Part shown: positions 18,931 through 50,618 of the stretch, in pieces
How the letters are laid out: each line of letters starts with the position of its first letter
Numbering within the stretch: position 1 is the first letter of the stretch
NCBI GenBank assembly: GCA_038046805.1
Contig: JBBSVO010000007.1
Location: 1-64,000, forward strand
Reading direction: 5' to 3'
Origin: Candidatus Micrarchaeota archaeon
Lineage (GTDB): Archaea; Micrarchaeota; Micrarchaeia; Anstonellales; Bilamarchaeaceae
Length of the DNA stretch: 64,000 nucleotides
The notes under the pieces: generated by a model
Seen by the model: the letters and a program-made list of their open reading frames with translations, nothing else
Database searches by the model: none
Told to the model about the DNA's origin: nothing
Program-made: the position numbers and the translations under genes

Positions 18931-19515
18931 CTACAATCTCAACGATTCCATGATTTCTCGATGGACATCGCTAATGCTCATTGTAGCATCTACTTTGTGC
19001 CAATTAGGGGTTAAAAACTTATCCTTGGCGAGCTGGAGAAATCGTTCGCGGACTTTTTCAAGATATTCTGCGTTTTCCTCATAGCGGTCTAGCTGCTTTT
19101 GCTTGCGCTTGCGCTCCTGGGATACTGAAGATGGAATGTCAAGCAGAAGAACAGCGTGCGGAACAATGAAATTCATTTTCGCAACAGCCTGCTTTCCATT
19201 TTCGTAATCATACCCGCCAATTGTTTCATACGCGATTGTTGAAAAAACATAGCGGTCCAAAATCACGAATTTTTTTGAATTTAGTGCCGCCCGTACCTGC
19301 TCTTGCTCTTTCATAATGTCTGCAAGAAACAGCTTGAATAAATCCTTTGGTTCAATCTCAATTTTCTTTTCAAGATAATCATTCAATTCCGGGGTGTTGT
19401 GGGTTGGATATTTGAAAACAGCGAGTTCGTTTCCGAATTCCTCGCGAAGGAGATGTATCTGGGTTTCTTTCCCACACCCGTCGATTCCCTCAAAAACAAT
19501 TAACAGCCCCGCCAT
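18931..19515 (-). CDS. tmk: Thymidylate kinase
   Basis: IVFEGIDGCGKETQ, ILDRYVFSTIAY. Confidence 0.93.
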   Translation of the reverse strand: MAGLLIVFEGIDGCGKETQIHLLREEFGNELAVFKYPTHNTPELNDYLEKKIEIEPKDLFKLFLADIMKEQEQVRAALNSKKFVILDRYVFSTIAYETIGGYDYENGKQAVAKMNFIVPHAVLLLDIPSSVSQERKRKQKQLDRYEENAEYLEKVRERFLQLAKDKFLTPNWHKVDATMSISDVHREIMESLRL

Positions 19516-19549
19516 ATCTTCAACCTACCTGCAATTGAACCAAAAGGTT

Positions 19550-19736
19550 ATATAAATATAAAAGTTGTTCCGATTTGTCTGGCGAATTTCTGGTTTGCAT
19601 ACTCCGCGTTTTCTTTGGGGGTGAAATCCGTAAAAATTCCAAAGATTTTTTACATCTTTACAACTCTGGCAGTTGTAAACCCTCAGCCCCTTTCTTTCTA
19701 AAAGAAAGGGGATATAGGATATAAATATAAAAGTTG
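19550..19736. mobile_element. 151-bp hairpin-rich insert (19568-19718) homologous to tRNA-Tyr intron 3, flanked by 18-bp direct repeats
   Basis: ATATAAATATAAAAGTTG at 19550-19567 and 19719-19736. The reverse complement of the insert matches 38264-38366 in blocks. Confidence 0.75.
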
Positions 19737-19750
19737 GCTAGCACAAATAT

Positions 19751-20665
19751 ATGGTGCTTATTATGAGGGACATGATATCAATACGAGATTTGGAGAAAAA
19801 GGAAATTGAACTGCTTTTGAAAATGGCTGCTGAAAATGAAGCAGAAATAAAAAAAGGGATTGAACCGAAAAAAACCGGAAAGGTAATGGCAACACTGTTT
19901 TTCGAGGCATCGACTAGGACAAAATTATCATTCCAGACGGCGGCACTTCGTAAGGGGCTTACATATATTGACTTCCTGACTGAAACAAGCTCTGTGAAAA
20001 AAGGGGAAACGTTCATTGACACGATAAAAGTAATTGATGGTTATGCCGACGTAATCGTGGCAAGGCATCCAAAAGAAGGGGCATTGCGGCTGGCGGCTGA
20101 CCTTGCAAATCACCCTGTAATAAACGGGGGAGACGGAGGAAACCAGCACCCGACGCAAACGCTGATTGATTTATACACAATGAAAAAAGAAAAGGGAAAA
20201 ATTGAGGGACTGAACGTAAGCTTGGTTGGAGACCTCAAACATGCAAGAACAATGCACTCCCTTCTTTACGCGCTCGCGATGTTCGGAGCAAACATAACAC
20301 TAATTGCGCCAAAAGGGCTTGAAATGGAAAAAGAACATCTTGAGGAAGTGAAGAAAAAATTCGGGGCAAAAATAATTACAAAAAGTGACCTTGACGCAGT
20401 TGGCGCAGATGTTTTGTATGTTTGCAGGATTCAGGCTGAACGATTCGCAGACCCGCTTGAAGCAAAGCGCGTACAGGAACAATTCAGGATAACCTCTGAG
20501 AATCTAAAGGGCTCTAAACCAGACTTGGTAATTCTGCATCCATTGCCAAAGGTGAACGAGATTGCGCAGGAAGTGGATGAAAGCAGGAATGCGAAATATT
20601 TCTCGCAGGCGCACAATGGCGTGCCGGTGAGGATGGCGGTTATTGATTATGCATTGGGGAAATGA
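19751..20665 (+). CDS. pyrB: Aspartate carbamoyltransferase catalytic subunit
   Basis: FFEASTRTKLSF, QHPTQTLID, HPLP, NGVPVRMA. Confidence 0.98.
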   Translation: MVLIMRDMISIRDLEKKEIELLLKMAAENEAEIKKGIEPKKTGKVMATLFFEASTRTKLSFQTAALRKGLTYIDFLTETSSVKKGETFIDTIKVIDGYADVIVARHPKEGALRLAADLANHPVINGGDGGNQHPTQTLIDLYTMKKEKGKIEGLNVSLVGDLKHARTMHSLLYALAMFGANITLIAPKGLEMEKEHLEEVKKKFGAKIITKSDLDAVGADVLYVCRIQAERFADPLEAKRVQEQFRITSENLKGSKPDLVILHPLPKVNEIAQEVDESRNAKYFSQAHNGVPVRMAVIDYALGK

Positions 20666-38085: not shown

Positions 38086-38376
38086 CCCGCTTTAGCTCAA
38101 GGGCCTTTTTGACTTAGTATGTACTTAGGGCAAAAACCCCCGGGAAAAAGCCCTTAGGTAAAATAGTCGAAAGGGACGAGCATCGGTAGAGCGACTGGCT
38201 GTAGCATGTTCTCGGTATTTTTGCCGATTTACAGTCGTGGATACCAGTAGGTTGCTTGTTCAATCCCATATCCCCTTTCTTTAGGAAAGAAAGGGGCTGA
38301 GGGTTTCACCCCCAAAGAAAACTATTAATACTGGGGTATGAAATCCAGTAATGGGGAACAAATCAGGCAAGCGGGA
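38086..38376 (+). tRNA. tRNA-Tyr(GUA) with three introns (15/16: 38101-38183; 37/38: 38205-38242; 58/59: 38264-38361)
   Basis: Spliced CCCGCTTTAGCTCAA|CGGTAGAGCGACTGGCTGTAG|ACCAGTAGGTTGCTTGTTCAA|ATCAGGCAAGCGGGA; C1-G72 and A73 archaeal Tyr identity elements; BHB-like junctions. Confidence 0.93.
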
Positions 38377-38449
38377 TTTTTTTTATTGGTTACGAGTCCA
38401 GGGTTTTGAGTTTCGGGTTCCGACTCGATAAGAGTAATAGGTTTGTGAT

Positions 38450-48152: not shown

Positions 48153-50618
48153 ATGGCGCTAATCAAAAGCAGGGCTTATTTTCTAGACGCGGATTACGTT
48201 TTCCGTAAAGGAGAAACATATCTGCGGCTTCTTATGAAGGGAAAACGAACATTTCGGCTTTATATGCGCTATGACCCGTATTTTTACGTTGATGCACCTC
48301 ACTCAGCAAAGGAAACGCTTGCAAAGCTTACTGCAAGGACAAAAATCGGGGAAACCGTGAAGGTTCTAAGAGTTGAGGAATGCGAACGGACTGTGCTTTG
48401 CGAACGGAAAAAGATATTTAAGGTGTTCGCCAGCCATCCGCAACACGTTCCTGCATTGAAGGGAGCTGTCCCTTACCCGTGTTTTGAATACAATATCCCA
48501 TTTGCAAAACGAGCAATAATTGACCTGAAACTCGTTCCGTTTTCGCTTGTTGAGTATAAACGCGAGAGGCGGATAATCAAGGAAATTATTAAGATAACCC
48601 AGGCTGAAAAACCACCAGCACTGACCAGGATGGCCTTTGATATTGAAACATACAATCCCCTTGGTGCTCCGCGAATGGATAAAGATCCGATAATCATGAT
48701 AAGTTATGAAACAGAAGTTGATGGAAAAACAGAACGAGGGGTCATTTCAACAAAGGATTTCAATAAGGAATACGCGATTCTATGTAAGGATGAAAAAGAA
48801 ATGCTTGAAAAATTCTCGGAAATAGTCCAACGTGTGGACCCGGACGTTCTTTATGGGTACAATTCTGCTAATTTTGATCTTACATATATGCTTGAACGGG
48901 AAAAAGCGGTGCGGGCTAAGTTAAACATCGGACGCGGAAAGGGAAAAATAACTCCTATAAAACGAGGCATGGTAGCCGGAATGCGAGTAGAGGGGAGAAT
49001 ACATTTCGATATTTATCCAACAGTCAGATTCTTCGGATTTATAGGTCTTGTGAAAACCGGTAGATTCACGCTCGAGGCAGTTTACGCAGAAATGAGCGGA
49101 AAAAAGAAAAAAATGGTTAAGCGAGCGGAGATTTGGGAGATGTGGGACAGAAACGAATTGGAGGAACTCGCAGATTATTCAATGAACGATGCCAAGGCAA
49201 CTCTGGAAATAGGAGATAAGGTACTACCACTTCAAACCGAAATGGCAACGATAGCAAAGATGCCACTTTTTGACGTTACCTTGTCTACGAGCGGCCAGTT
49301 GGTTGAAAGCCTTCTTATGTTCAATGCAAATACAAGAGAAGAAATCGTACCGAACAGGCCAAACGACGCAGTGATAAAGGAAAGAGATTTGAGTCCGATA
49401 CAGGGGGCATTTGTCAAACTTCCGGAACCAGGAATTTATGAGAATATCGCAGTTATGGACTTCCGCGGACTGTACCCCTCGATAATTGTTTCGTATAATA
49501 TCGATCCGTTCACGGTAATCAAAACAGGAAACAAAAAAGCCGGGACTCCAGACTCTAGACTCGAAACGGAATCCGGAGCGCATGAAGCTCCAACCGGAGT
49601 GCGGTTCTCAAAAAAGAAAATTGGGATGATACCCGAAACGCTCGAATGGTTGGTGGAATTCCGTTCTAAGATAAAAAAGGAGATAAAAAAACATAAACCA
49701 GATACTCTGGAATATATACATCTGTCGGCAAGGTCGCATGCGCTAAAGATTCTTGCAAACAGCTTCTATGGATATATGCTTTATTCCCGCTCAAGGTGGT
49801 ATAGCAGGGAATGCGGGGAAAGCGTTACTGCATTAGGAAGGATGCATATTCAAAATACTATACAAATGGCTGAGAAAGTGGGGTTTAGTGTTTTATATGG
49901 AGACACTGATTCGATCTTCCTCCTGCTCGGGAACAAGCCAAAGGATTCCGCAACTGAATTTATGGAAAAAATAAATAAATCGCTTCCGGGAAACATGGAA
50001 CTCGAATTAGAGGGATTTTATCCGCGTGGAGTATTTGTAGGTAAAAAGGGGGAAGAACGCGGGGCAAAGAAAAAATATGCAATGATTGGAGAAGATGGAA
50101 GAATAAAAATACGCGGATTCGAACTGGTTAGGCGAGACTGGTCGCAGGTTGCAAAGGAAACCCAGCGCATGGTTCTTGAGGCAATTCTCAAGGAAGGCAG
50201 CAAGGAAAAGGCAGTGAAAATCGTGCGTGAAGCCGTGGAGCGGTTGAAAAGCGGAAAGGTTCCACTGGAAGAATTGGCGATAACGACCCAGCTTAACAAA
50301 GCACCTGGAAAATATGAGGTAACCAGCCCGGAACTTGCAGCAGCAGAAAAGGCAGCAAAACGAGGGGTTCCGATTGAAAAGGGAAGCGTGATTCAGTATG
50401 TGATAGTGAAAACTGGGAAAACAACAAAAGCATCATCTGCGCCCATATCCGAAAGAGCAGAACCAGTTGATTTTGTGAAGGAGGGGGATTACGACGCAGA
50501 TTATTATATAAACAATCAGGTATTACCTTCAGTTATGAAAATCCTGAAAGAATTGGGATATAGTGAGTATGACCTCAAGATTGGTGGAAAACAAAAGAGT
50601 TTATTAAGTTTTGAATAG
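48153..50618 (+). CDS. polB: Family B DNA polymerase
   Basis: FDIET, GYNSANFD, DFRGLYPSII, KILANSFYG, YGDTDS; C-terminal PIP-box QKSLLSF; no intein seen. Confidence 0.98.
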   Translation: MALIKSRAYFLDADYVFRKGETYLRLLMKGKRTFRLYMRYDPYFYVDAPHSAKETLAKLTARTKIGETVKVLRVEECERTVLCERKKIFKVFASHPQHVPALKGAVPYPCFEYNIPFAKRAIIDLKLVPFSLVEYKRERRIIKEIIKITQAEKPPALTRMAFDIETYNPLGAPRMDKDPIIMISYETEVDGKTERGVISTKDFNKEYAILCKDEKEMLEKFSEIVQRVDPDVLYGYNSANFDLTYMLEREKAVRAKLNIGRGKGKITPIKRGMVAGMRVEGRIHFDIYPTVRFFGFIGLVKTGRFTLEAVYAEMSGKKKKMVKRAEIWEMWDRNELEELADYSMNDAKATLEIGDKVLPLQTEMATIAKMPLFDVTLSTSGQLVESLLMFNANTREEIVPNRPNDAVIKERDLSPIQGAFVKLPEPGIYENIAVMDFRGLYPSIIVSYNIDPFTVIKTGNKKAGTPDSRLETESGAHEAPTGVRFSKKKIGMIPETLEWLVEFRSKIKKEIKKHKPDTLEYIHLSARSHALKILANSFYGYMLYSRSRWYSRECGESVTALGRMHIQNTIQMAEKVGFSVLYGDTDSIFLLLGNKPKDSATEFMEKINKSLPGNMELELEGFYPRGVFVGKKGEERGAKKKYAMIGEDGRIKIRGFELVRRDWSQVAKETQRMVLEAILKEGSKEKAVKIVREAVERLKSGKVPLEELAITTQLNKAPGKYEVTSPELAAAEKAAKRGVPIEKGSVIQYVIVKTGKTTKASSAPISERAEPVDFVKEGDYDADYYINNQVLPSVMKILKELGYSEYDLKIGGKQKSLLSFE

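What the first reader, a model, noticed from the sequence alone, without database searches (positions are those of the whole stretch)
19550..19736. Free-standing copy of a tRNA intron in a promoter region, between exact 18-bp direct repeats
Seen: the reverse complement of 19568-19718 aligns collinearly with the T-loop intron of tRNA-Tyr (38264-38361). The shared blocks are ATATCCCCTTTCTTT..GAAAGAAAGGGGCTGAGGGTTT, then CACCCCCAAAGAAAAC, then GG.GTATG.AA.CCAG.AAT, and ACAAATC across the intron/exon junction. The intergenic copy carries an extra ~53-nt hairpin module. It is bracketed by an exact repeat ATATAAATATAAAAGTTG that contains the TATA-like box between tmk and pyrB. Known: archaeal BHB introns can move between tRNAs (described in Thermoproteales), but they are generally found inside RNA genes. 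Inference: either a small non-autonomous element seeds new tRNA introns, or an excised intron was reinserted into DNA with a target duplication. Either would be direct evidence for how noncanonical tRNA introns arise.
Basis: partly seen in the sequence, partly recalled or inferred. Interest (0 to 1): 0.85.

Follow-up and report, generated by a model that had tools for sequence, protein, structure and literature searches.

The report
Mobile tRNA intron inserted between genes
A small folded DNA element that usually sits as an intron inside transfer-RNA genes of tiny Micrarchaeota archaea has recently copied itself into the promoter region between two ordinary genes, duplicating 18 bases of its target, which gives a rare direct look at how such introns move.

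Summary
Window 19568-19718 (minus strand) is a 151-nt insert between exact 18-bp direct repeats. It is collinear with the T-loop intron (38264-38361) of a three-intron tRNA-Tyr gene.

- **Copies in this genome:** it is one of 11, namely 5 T-loop introns, 2 tRNA 3' trailers and 4 free-standing copies.
- **Wider spread:** a covariance model finds the family in 21 of 41 related genomes. Exact-pattern scans of public collections hit only Micrarchaeota records.
- **Recent mobility:** a same-genus relative has clean empty sites, each with a single copy of the repeat, at this locus and at a second free-standing locus. That relative also has an uninterrupted T-loop where this genome carries the element in tRNA-Leu.
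- **Target duplications:** the seven flanked copies have duplications of 14-38 bp.
- **Core structure:** two helices are supported by covariation. A purine tail follows the hairpin in mirror order, which fits a triple helix and not ordinary pairing.
- **Extra hairpins:** the extra module is a nested, separately mobile double-hairpin mini-element.
- **Mechanism:** the insert's ends match the intron's ends, with 3-4 nt microhomology at the 3' junction. I therefore favour reinsertion of excised intron RNA by target-primed copying, but this is inferred and no mobilising enzyme was identified.

I found no description in the papers searched. The scan had already noted the double-hairpin mini-element on other DNA of this genome, but not this family.

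The parts
19550..19567 (.). Target-site duplication, copy next to tmk (ATATAAATATAAAAGTTG). It contains the TATA-like box.
   Evidence: Exact 18/18 repeat. Relative G001 has a single copy, AATATAAAAGTTG, at the same place.
19568..19607 (-). 3' variable part of the insert (40 nt). It resembles the 3' part of the tRNA-Tyr T-loop intron and ends in GGAA, followed by CAA of the duplication (together GGAACAA).
   Evidence: T-loop introns of the family end in GAACAA or GAACAC.
19608..19625 (-). Linker end and purine tail of the core (TTCACCCCCAAAGAAAAC).
   Evidence: Core coordinates. The tail mirrors the hairpin arm.
19626..19676 (-). Nested 51-nt double-hairpin mini-element, a separate family, inserted in the linker of the core.
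   Evidence: An nhmmer profile built from three long forms finds a stand-alone copy at C1:35680-35732, E 3.7e-6. Short forms of the core lack it.
19677..19718 (-). 5' half of the core: P1 5' strand, internal loop, P2 hairpin (pyrimidine arm / purine arm), CTGA, P1 3' strand.
   Evidence: Covariance-model hit at 45.2 bits, model positions 1-44. Fold; pair counts.
19719..19736 (.). Target-site duplication, copy next to pyrB.
18931..19515 (-). tmk (thymidylate kinase), downstream of the element in the element's sense direction.
   Evidence: Pfam PF02223, E 2.8e-32. ORF.
19751..20665 (+). pyrB-like carbamoyltransferase.
   Evidence: Pfam PF02729 and PF00185. 95% identical ortholog in G001.
38087..38376 (+). 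tRNA-Tyr(GTA) gene with three introns. Exons are 38087-38100, 38182-38204, 38243-38263 and 38362-38376.
   Evidence: ARAGORN calls tRNA-Tyr(gta) on the exons joined by coordinates. It is missed on the raw DNA.
38264..38361 (+). T-loop intron. It consists of the short-form element (core 38265-38322) plus a 39-nt 3' part that pairs with the T-arm to give a relaxed bulge-helix-bulge.
   Evidence: Covariance-model hit at 83.5 bits. Fold. G001 has an internally deleted 38-nt version at the same place.

Best explanation
The insert is a recent, free-standing copy of a Micrarchaeota-specific family of mobile, non-coding tRNA introns of the protein-spliced (bulge-helix-bulge) type.

Core structure. The family core is 47-60 nt. 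It has a short closing helix P1, an internal loop (ATAT opposite CTGA), an 11-12-bp hairpin P2 with one pyrimidine arm and one purine arm, a short linker, and a purine tail whose run pattern mirrors the hairpin.

Where copies sit. They occur as T-loop and anticodon-loop introns, directly behind tRNA 3' ends, beside C/D box sRNA genes, and at promoters.

This copy. It is a T-loop-type intron that carries a nested double-hairpin mini-element. It landed in the shared tmk/pyrB promoter. An 18-bp staggered target duplication left each gene its own TATA box, so the insertion is probably harmless.

What is shown: family membership, the target duplication, the empty site in a sister species, and intron presence/absence within the genus.

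What is inferred, as the most likely route: the excised T-loop intron RNA was copied into DNA at a nicked target, primed by 3-4 nt of homology between the RNA's 3' end and the target, in the manner of target-primed reverse transcription. Entry into other tRNAs would go without duplication, by reverse splicing or by recombination with cDNA. The conserved core, perhaps a triple helix, would serve the element by stabilising the RNA or DNA intermediate or by being recognised by the copying machinery.
For: Family and contexts:
- There are 11 copies in this genome, all in the sense direction of the host tRNA or of the gene downstream.
- 21 of 41 related genomes have a model match.
- By my reading of 34 public loci, 13 are in the T-loop or T-arm, 12 are in the anticodon loop, 4 follow a tRNA 3' end (one of these is doubtful), 1 follows nt 13 of a tRNA with a 14-bp repeat, and 4 are other.

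Recent mobility:
- G001 (pyrB 95% identical) has single-copy empty sites at the tmk-pyrB spacer and at the tRNA promoter where this genome has a copy with a 22-bp duplication.
- The more distant G010 also lacks the insert at the tmk-pyrB spacer.
- tRNA-Leu has the element in its T-loop here and an uninterrupted T-loop in G001. That copy differs by 1 nt in the core from the tRNA-Cys copy.

Duplications: they measure 14, 15, 17, 18, 19, 22 and 38 bp in 7 flanked copies.

Ends of the inserts:
- They start at (T)CCCAT / CCTAT, the 5' end of the introns.
- This insert ends GGAA followed by CAA of the repeat. That matches the GAACAA ends of T-loop introns.
- The second verified copy ends before AAAC of its repeat, and its 3' part shares AAACTCAGAA with the tRNA-Cys T-loop intron.

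Structure:
- 16 of 16 pairs show changes on both sides, and 96.8% of cells are paired against 83.9% in shuffles (0 of 500 shuffles reach the observed value). The alignment was fitted to the model.
- The tail mirrors the arm in 27 of 32 unique combinations. Of 24 asymmetric ones, 21 fit mirror order and 1 fits inverted order. None of 100000 shuffles reaches 27.
- The core is 58 of 60 nt identical between genera whose pyrB proteins are 58% identical.
Against: - No RNA data exist for this organism in the runs listed, so neither an RNA intermediate nor a circular intron has been seen.
- The only reverse transcriptase found in the genome is of the diversity-generating-retroelement type. None was found in G003, G032 or G033, which carry 9, 2 and 17 model matches.
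- An alternative alignment lets the insert run 7 nt into a 3' exon (ACAAATC...), which would point to a DNA or unspliced-RNA source. No matching source tRNA exists in the 86%-complete genome.
- The direct source copy, a long-form T-loop intron with this 3' part, is not in the assembly.
- Insertion versus precise loss cannot be polarised strictly from two genomes. For tRNA-Leu the other genera are mixed.
- The sense bias inside tRNA genes can be explained by selection for spliceability under any model.
- The cluster of flanked copies at promoters may reflect survival, not targeting.
Confidence: 0.6

Rival explanations
1. A DNA transposon of the miniature, non-autonomous kind. A transposase or integrase encoded elsewhere cuts and pastes or copies the DNA element, and the introns are simply insertions that happen to be spliceable because the element carries its own half of the splice motif.
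For: The element is multi-copy and has target duplications and clean empty sites. Its boundaries are constant at the 5' end. Subfamilies carry 3' ends suited to the T-loop or to the anticodon loop.
Against: - There are no terminal inverted repeats.
- Duplication length varies from 14 to 38 bp, unlike the fixed stagger of known transposases.
- The T-loop copy that is absent from G001 shows no duplication.
- No transposase gene lies next to any copy.
- No copy was found on viral contigs.
Confidence: 0.2
2. Replication or repair template switching. A stalled fork or broken end at the AT-rich promoter copied about 150 nt from a tRNA-intron locus through microhomology and switched back upstream of where it left, giving an insertion plus a flanking duplication without any dedicated enzyme.
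For: The duplications are variable and long. There are 3-4 nt microhomologies at the 3' junctions. Hairpin and triplex-prone sequence is known to stall polymerases (general knowledge, recalled).
Against: Two independent inserts begin at the same nucleotide of the core and end at the intron's 3' end, not at arbitrary points. The same family recurs in 21 of 41 genomes and in many contexts, which needs a repeatable process.
Confidence: 0.1
3. A host-useful small RNA gene. The core is a functional RNA, for instance a stable protein-binding or regulatory RNA, released by tRNA processing enzymes from introns and trailers. Free-standing copies would be extra genes with their own duplicated promoter.
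For: The core is far better conserved than proteins. There is covariation and a conserved tertiary-looking constraint. The copies are placed where the splicing endonuclease or RNase Z would release them. Some archaeal C/D box sRNAs are known to be made in this way (recalled).
Against: - Copies are gained, lost and internally deleted between two species of one genus.
- In the free-standing copies the upstream TATA box lies 0-10 nt from the element, so a transcript started there would lack the 5' arm.
- No Rfam family matches.
- 20 of 41 relatives show no match.
Confidence: 0.08
4. An assembly artefact. The repeat-flanked insert would be a chimeric join of reads from the tRNA locus and the promoter.
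For: The genome is assembled from a metagenome, and repeats break contigs (X7's contigs break inside the element).
Against: Contigs of other runs cover the insert and both junctions with no difference (X10 at 19468-19768; X9 at 19362-19731; X4 covers the whole stretch but may be the source). The insert differs from every other copy in the genome.
Confidence: 0.02

Closest known systems
Transposing tRNA introns of Thermoproteales (Fujishima et al. 2010, Mol Biol Evol). I saw this only as cited in PMC3239211, PMC4090602, PMC10714607 and the 2026 Asgard preprint.
   Same: [quoted passage not shown] They are removed at bulge-helix-bulge motifs, and mobility was inferred from sequence.
   Different: This family is in another phylum (Micrarchaeota). 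It has a 47-60-nt structured core conserved across an order. It has copies outside RNA genes with 14-38-bp target duplications and empty sites in a sister species. The mechanism in Thermoproteales is stated to be unknown (PMC4090602, passages read).
Disrupted tRNA genes of Candidatus Micrarchaeum acidiphilum (ARMAN-2) and its three-unit epsilon-2 splicing endonuclease (PMC3239211, passages read)
   Same: It is the same phylum, with tRNA genes holding non-canonical introns including the T-loop. A broad-specificity endonuclease would explain why relaxed motifs such as the one are spliced.
   Different: The passages I read describe no shared intron core, no free-standing copies and no target duplications.
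SINE-like or processed retrocopies made by target-primed reverse transcription (general knowledge, recalled)
   Same: The insert is shaped like an RNA processing product, the target duplications vary in length, and there is short homology at the 3' junction.
   Different: There is no A-rich 3' tail and no partner retrotransposon. The host is archaeal, and the reverse transcriptase has not been identified.
Introner elements of eukaryotic algae and fungi (mobile spliceosomal introns; recalled, and mentioned in PMC11782384)
   Same: They are non-coding mobile DNA that becomes an intron on insertion and spreads to many genes.
   Different: They use a different splicing system (spliceosome versus endonuclease plus ligase), a different domain of life, and DNA-transposon ends in the known cases.
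Triple-helix RNA stability elements (ENE of viral and MALAT1-type RNAs; recalled)
   Same: An A-rich 3' tract lies alongside a U-rich/A-rich hairpin, and in MALAT1 it sits next to a tRNA-like processing site. A triple helix is implied by sequence rules.
   Different: Those use two U-rich strands clamping one A-rich strand. Here the sense strand has one pyrimidine and two purine strands, so a classic U.A-U triplex is possible only on the antisense strand. No structure has been tested.
Double-hairpin mini-elements of Micrarchaeota
   Same: The 51-nt module nested in this insert belongs to that kind. It also stands alone at C1:35680-35732.
   Different: It is a separate family from the intron core. 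It is reported to insert without target duplication. Here it always sits at the same point of the core's linker.

Membership tests
Archaeal bulge-helix-bulge tRNA intron | It lies inside an RNA gene, and its removal restores the mature RNA. | tested here: met
   Met for 38264-38361: ARAGORN calls tRNA-Tyr after removal. For the flagged copy at 19568-19718 this feature is NOT met, because it lies between two protein genes.
Archaeal bulge-helix-bulge tRNA intron | Splice sites lie in two bulges separated by a short helix. | tested here: inconclusive
   The fold of 38244-38378 pairs the T-stem and the intron ends (UCCCAU with AUGGGG), leaving a 5-nt and a 7-nt loop. A GUUC/GAAC helix could form inside it, giving a relaxed motif. 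No enzyme assay was done.
Miniature inverted-repeat transposable element (MITE) | Terminal inverted repeats. | tested here: not met
   The ends are CCCAT... and a variable 3' part with no terminal inverted repeat.
Miniature inverted-repeat transposable element (MITE) | Target-site duplication of fixed length. | tested here: not met
   The lengths are 14, 15, 17, 18, 19, 22 and 38 bp in 7 copies.
REP / palindrome-associated elements moved by IS200/IS605-type (Y1) transposases | Hairpin element inserted without target duplication, next to a fixed short target motif. | tested here: not met
   Duplications are present, and no shared target motif is seen at the junctions.
Retroposon made by target-primed reverse transcription | Insert with the ends of an RNA product, variable duplications, and microhomology at the 3' junction. 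| tested here: met
   The alternative alignment of the 3' end leaves some doubt.
Retroposon made by target-primed reverse transcription | A reverse transcriptase available in the same cells. | tested here: inconclusive
   RVT_1 matched in 12 of 41 genomes: 10 of the 21 with the element and 2 of the 20 without. The one in this genome is of the diversity-generating type. None was found in G003, G032 or G033.
Any described RNA family (Rfam 15) | Match at the gathering score. | tested here: not met
   There were 0 matches in the window at gathering scores. The best permissive hits are 16-21 bits against cut-offs of 39-90.
Intramolecular triple helix | The third strand follows the triplex code and polarity relative to the purine strand of a duplex. 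| tested here: met
   The sequence rule is met: the tail runs equal the arm runs in mirror order.
Intramolecular triple helix | Physical formation of the triplex. | not testable with these tools
   This needs melting, circular dichroism or chemical probing of sense and antisense RNA and DNA.

The most novel reading that the evidence does not exclude
This is a new class of archaeal mobile element: a protein-spliced tRNA intron that propagates as RNA. The excised intron is protected or recognised through a conserved intramolecular triple helix. It re-enters tRNAs by reverse splicing and enters DNA near transcription start sites by target-primed copying. That would supply the long-sought route by which non-canonical archaeal tRNA introns arise and spread.
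Probability: 0.3. Interest if true: 0.92.

Novelty: new variant of a known kind. Interest (0 to 1): 0.8.

Why it matters
How protein-spliced tRNA introns arrive in archaeal genes is an open question. A 2014 review calls the transposition mechanism unknown (PMC4090602, passages read). A 2026 preprint on Asgard archaea tested copying, mobile elements and reverse transcription and concluded that the route remains open (10.64898/2026.10.13.758758, abstract and section 2.5 read).

This family catches the process in the act:
- The same element occurs as an intron at several tRNA positions and as fresh, duplication-flanked copies outside RNA genes.
- Empty sites, and an intron-free T-loop, exist in a sister species.

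That makes the mechanism testable, through insert ends, duplications, RNA circles and cDNA. It also provides a covariance model for finding such introns, which standard tRNA finders miss.

The mirror-order covariation is, as far as my searches show, an undescribed conserved signature. It points to a natural triple helix in a mobile element of ultrasmall archaea.

Tried and rejected
- **tRNA and RNA-family searches:** ARAGORN on the window found 0 tRNAs. With intron mode on the whole genome it found only 10, so tRNA contexts were read by eye and one gene was checked by in-silico splicing. Rfam gave nothing at gathering scores and only chance-level hits at permissive settings.
- **Alignment:** MAFFT misaligned the 3' ends of the long forms, so the model was built from 5 short forms only.
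- **Sequencing runs:** no RNA holder was listed among the 16 runs. The four runs laid were contigs and showed no empty-site allele.
- **Viral contigs:** two patterns gave 0 matches.
- **Third free-standing locus:** the C3 tandem pair is not syntenic in G001, so no empty site could be read there.
- **tRNA-Leu outgroup:** the test was ambiguous. Some genera have contiguous T-arms and others break at the T-loop, and isoacceptors were not separated.
- **Source tRNA:** a search for a tRNA whose T-arm would explain 'ATCGGAA' found none among about 100 occurrences of the motif.
- **Reverse transcriptase:** the association is weak and kin are not independent.
- **Earlier notes of the scan, searched by sequence:** nothing for the module and one unrelated note for the core.
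- **Decayed duplications in T-loop introns:** CCAGTA is shared by exon and intron in tRNA-Tyr, and 11 of 18 positions match in tRNA-Leu by my eye. I judged both to be within chance.
- **K-turn or C/D box reading of the conserved CTGA:** rejected, because the core has no C box (UGAUGA).
- **Literature:** seven searches found no description of this element. Fujishima 2010 itself is not in the library, and the supplements of the bioRxiv preprint were not seen.

Full report
**1. The observation**

The 18-mer ATATAAATATAAAAGTTG occurs exactly at 19550-19567 and at 19719-19736. The 151 nt between the two copies, read on the minus strand, match the region 38263-38322 in collinear order: 93.2% over 44 nt (E 1e-11), then 19 of 19 nt.

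Standard tools see no tRNA in the window (ARAGORN; Rfam). The sequence at 38087-38376 nevertheless reads as a tRNA-Tyr with introns in the D-loop, the anticodon loop and the T-loop. Joining the four exons by coordinates makes ARAGORN call tRNA-Tyr(gta), so 38264-38361 is a T-loop intron. A fold of the T-arm region pairs the T-stem and the two intron ends around a small internal loop in which GUUC could pair with GAAC. That is a relaxed bulge-helix-bulge.

The flanking genes are thymidylate kinase and a carbamoyltransferase of the pyrB/argF family.

**2. A family, not a pair**

In the 1.2-Mb, 16-contig genome the element occurs 11 times:

| Context | Count | Copies |
|---|---|---|
| T-loop introns | 5 | Tyr; Asp at C3:~172709-172768; Cys at C9:12779-12837; Leu at C6:~220650-220877; a diverged one at C6:~50095-50165 |
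| Start two bases behind a tRNA 3' end | 2 | C2:39067; C6:88248 |
| Free-standing | 4 | This one; C2:38826-38885, in front of a tRNA; a tandem pair at C3:36602-36784 |

All 11 lie in the sense direction of the host tRNA or of the gene downstream.

The free-standing copies sit between direct repeats that differ from locus to locus: 18 bp here, 22 bp at C2, and three copies of a 38-mer around the two C3 units. Each repeat contains a TATA-like box.

**3. Mobility**

- *First empty site.* The same-genus genome G001 (pyrB 95% identical) has at the tmk-pyrB spacer a single AATATAAAAGTTG followed by GCTAGC, and no insert. The more distant G010 also lacks the insert.
- *Second empty site.* At the C2 locus G001 has one copy of the 22-mer, directly followed by the tRNA leader.
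- *Polymorphism inside tRNA genes.*
  - tRNA-Leu(CAA) has an uninterrupted T-loop in G001 and a ~220-nt long-form element in this genome. The core of that copy differs by one base from the tRNA-Cys T-loop copy and shares its unusual CACGCC tail.
  - The tRNA-Tyr intron is cut down to 38 nt in G001.
  - The tRNA-Asp T-loop intron is a 26-nt stump in G001.
  - The tRNA-Cys anticodon-loop intron is full length in G001 and a remnant here.
  - For tRNA-Leu, gain and loss cannot be told apart, because other genera are mixed.
- *Assembly.* Contigs of other public runs carry this insert and its junctions unchanged.

**4. Range**

A covariance model built from five short forms finds matches in 21 of 41 related genomes, in several families of the order. 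An exact degenerate pattern found three results:

- 16 stretches among one genome each of about 185,000 species. 14 are titled Candidatus Micrarchaeota or Micrarchaeia and 2 are titled just 'archaeon'.
- 18 stretches in metagenome contigs.
- No match in viral contigs.

By my reading of those 34 loci:

| Context | Loci |
|---|---|
| T-loop or T-arm | 13 |
| Anticodon loop | 12 |
| Behind a tRNA 3' end (one doubtful) | 4 |
| Behind nt 13 of a tRNA, with a 14-bp repeat | 1 |
| Elsewhere | 4 |

In relatives the element also lies directly behind the CTGA box of C/D box sRNA genes. One such copy has a 17-bp duplication inside the sRNA gene, and another has a 15-bp duplication in the opposite orientation. 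In all, seven flanked copies have duplications of 14, 15, 17, 18, 19, 22 and 38 bp. All seven lie within a few tens of bases of a promoter or of the start of a small-RNA gene. Whether that reflects targeting or survival is open.

**5. Structure**

- *Helices.* The consensus has a closing helix P1 (CCC with GGG), an internal loop (ATAT opposite CTGA) and a hairpin P2 of 11-12 pairs, with a pyrimidine 5' arm and a purine 3' arm. On 126 model matches all 16 pairs show changes on both sides. 96.8% of cells pair, against 83.9% in shuffles (0 of 500 reach the observed value), and slid partners give 52-72%. That alignment was fitted to the model, which favours the structure.
- *Tail.* Behind P1 come a short linker and a tail: a C run, an A run, a G and another A run. 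The tail's run lengths follow the 5' arm in the same 5'-to-3' order. Arm patterns (5,3), (3,5), (6,4), (6,3), (5,4,4), (4,3,2) and (2,3,3) recur in the tails.
- *How the counts were made.* Of 98 non-overlapping matches, 72 could be parsed, giving 36 unique arm/tail combinations. I dropped 4 with mis-assigned tails. Of the remaining 32, 27 agree in the first run. Of 24 asymmetric ones, 21 fit the mirror order and 1 fits the inverted order that Watson-Crick pairing would need. None of 100000 shuffles reaches 27. Related sequences are not independent, but the patterns change many times.
- *Interpretation.* Mirror order is what a triple helix requires.
  - On the sense strand the tail would run antiparallel to the purine arm (A on A-U, G on G-C).
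  - On the antisense strand a T/C/G strand would run parallel to the purine arm.
  - Which strand or molecule forms the triplex is unknown.
- *Conservation.* The core is 58 of 60 nt identical between genera whose pyrB is 58% identical, so it is under strong constraint or spreads horizontally.

**6. The extra hairpins**

Long forms carry a two-hairpin module at one fixed point of the linker. Its sequence differs between subfamilies. A profile of the module finds a stand-alone copy at C1:35680-35732. The flagged insert is therefore a composite: intron core, nested mini-element, and a 40-nt 3' part.

**7. Mechanism**

- *5' ends.* The two inserts with verified empty sites begin at the base where T-loop introns begin ((T)CCCAT, here CCTAT).
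- *3' ends.*
  - The 3' part of this insert resembles that of the tRNA-Tyr intron. It ends GGAA followed by CAA of the repeat, that is GGAACAA, the end seen in T-loop introns (GAACAA before ATC).
  - The 3' part of the C2 insert shares AAACTCAGAA with the tRNA-Cys T-loop intron and ends just before AAAC of its repeat.
- *What the ends imply.* The inserts have the shape of excised introns, including host-specific 3' parts that only serve splicing, and they share 3-4 nt with the start of the duplication.
- *Favoured route.* Taken with the long and variable duplications, this fits copying of intron RNA from a nicked target, as in target-primed reverse transcription. The tRNA-Leu case shows no duplication, which fits a second entry route into RNA genes, either reverse splicing or recombination with cDNA. 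All of this is inference.
- *Enzymes.* The only reverse transcriptase in the genome is of the diversity-generating type (motifs read; Pfam). Matches occur in 12 of 41 genomes: 10 of the 21 with the element and 2 of the 20 without. Three element-rich genomes show none.
No tRNA in this assembly fits such a source.
- *Rivals.* These are an unknown DNA transposase, replication template switching, and a host-useful small RNA.

**8. Literature**

- Transposition of tRNA introns between tRNAs was inferred for Thermoproteales (Fujishima 2010; I saw it only as cited). Its mechanism is called unknown (PMC4090602, passages).
- ARMAN-type Micrarchaeota are known for disrupted tRNA genes and a broad-specificity endonuclease (PMC3239211, passages).
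- A Caldiarchaeum study linked intron gain to a recombinase-bearing element (PMC3293823, abstract).
- A 2026 preprint found no general arrival route in Asgard archaea (abstract and section 2.5).
- None of seven searches turned up this element, free-standing duplication-flanked intron copies, or the mirror rule.

**9. Verdict**

The element is a new, well-defined variant of the 'mobile tRNA intron' kind. It has unusually direct evidence of movement and an unexplained, conserved triplex-like signature.

Noticed in passing
G000 contig C11:460-1718 (locus L106), and L107 1615-2722: A reverse transcriptase of the diversity-generating-retroelement type is read in two overlapping frames that switch at a glycine/poly-G run. 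This happens in both this genome and a genome of another genus, with an Asn-rich template-like ORF beside it. It may be a conserved frameshift.
   Followed up: partly
G000 C6:~220650-220880 (locus L006) versus L153 1500-1612: tRNA-Leu(CAA) carries a ~220-nt element as a T-loop intron in this genome and has an uninterrupted T-loop in the same-genus relative. No flanking duplication is visible.
   Followed up: yes
window 38101-38181: The D-loop intron of tRNA-Tyr has a 77% match to G001:C12:1391-1454, near that genome's tmk gene. This may be another moving intron family.
   Followed up: no
L150 1340-1620 (minus strand): The tRNA-Asp of the relative has an 86-nt anticodon-loop intron that this genome lacks. 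It has a 26-nt T-loop intron where this genome has the full element.
   Followed up: partly
L091 230-410; L034 ~1480-1590; L035, L039, L043, L047: In six genomes the element lies directly behind the CTGA box of C/D box sRNA genes, often the same guide (…CCTGGAGC…). Once it sits inside the gene with a 17-bp duplication.
   Followed up: partly
G000 C1:35680-35732: A stand-alone copy of the 51-nt double-hairpin module lies behind a stop codon. A half copy lies at C13:17544-17574.
   Followed up: partly
L089 150-480 (minus strand) and L133: The first 19 nt (or 13-14 nt) of a tRNA gene, plus a diverged copy of its promoter, are duplicated around the element. A 5' gene fragment, the element and then an intact tRNA gene therefore follow one another.
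   Followed up: partly
G000 C3:36480-36830 (locus L002): Two identical element units alternate with three copies of a 38-bp promoter-bearing repeat. This is a tandem duplication of an insertion plus its target duplication.
   Followed up: partly
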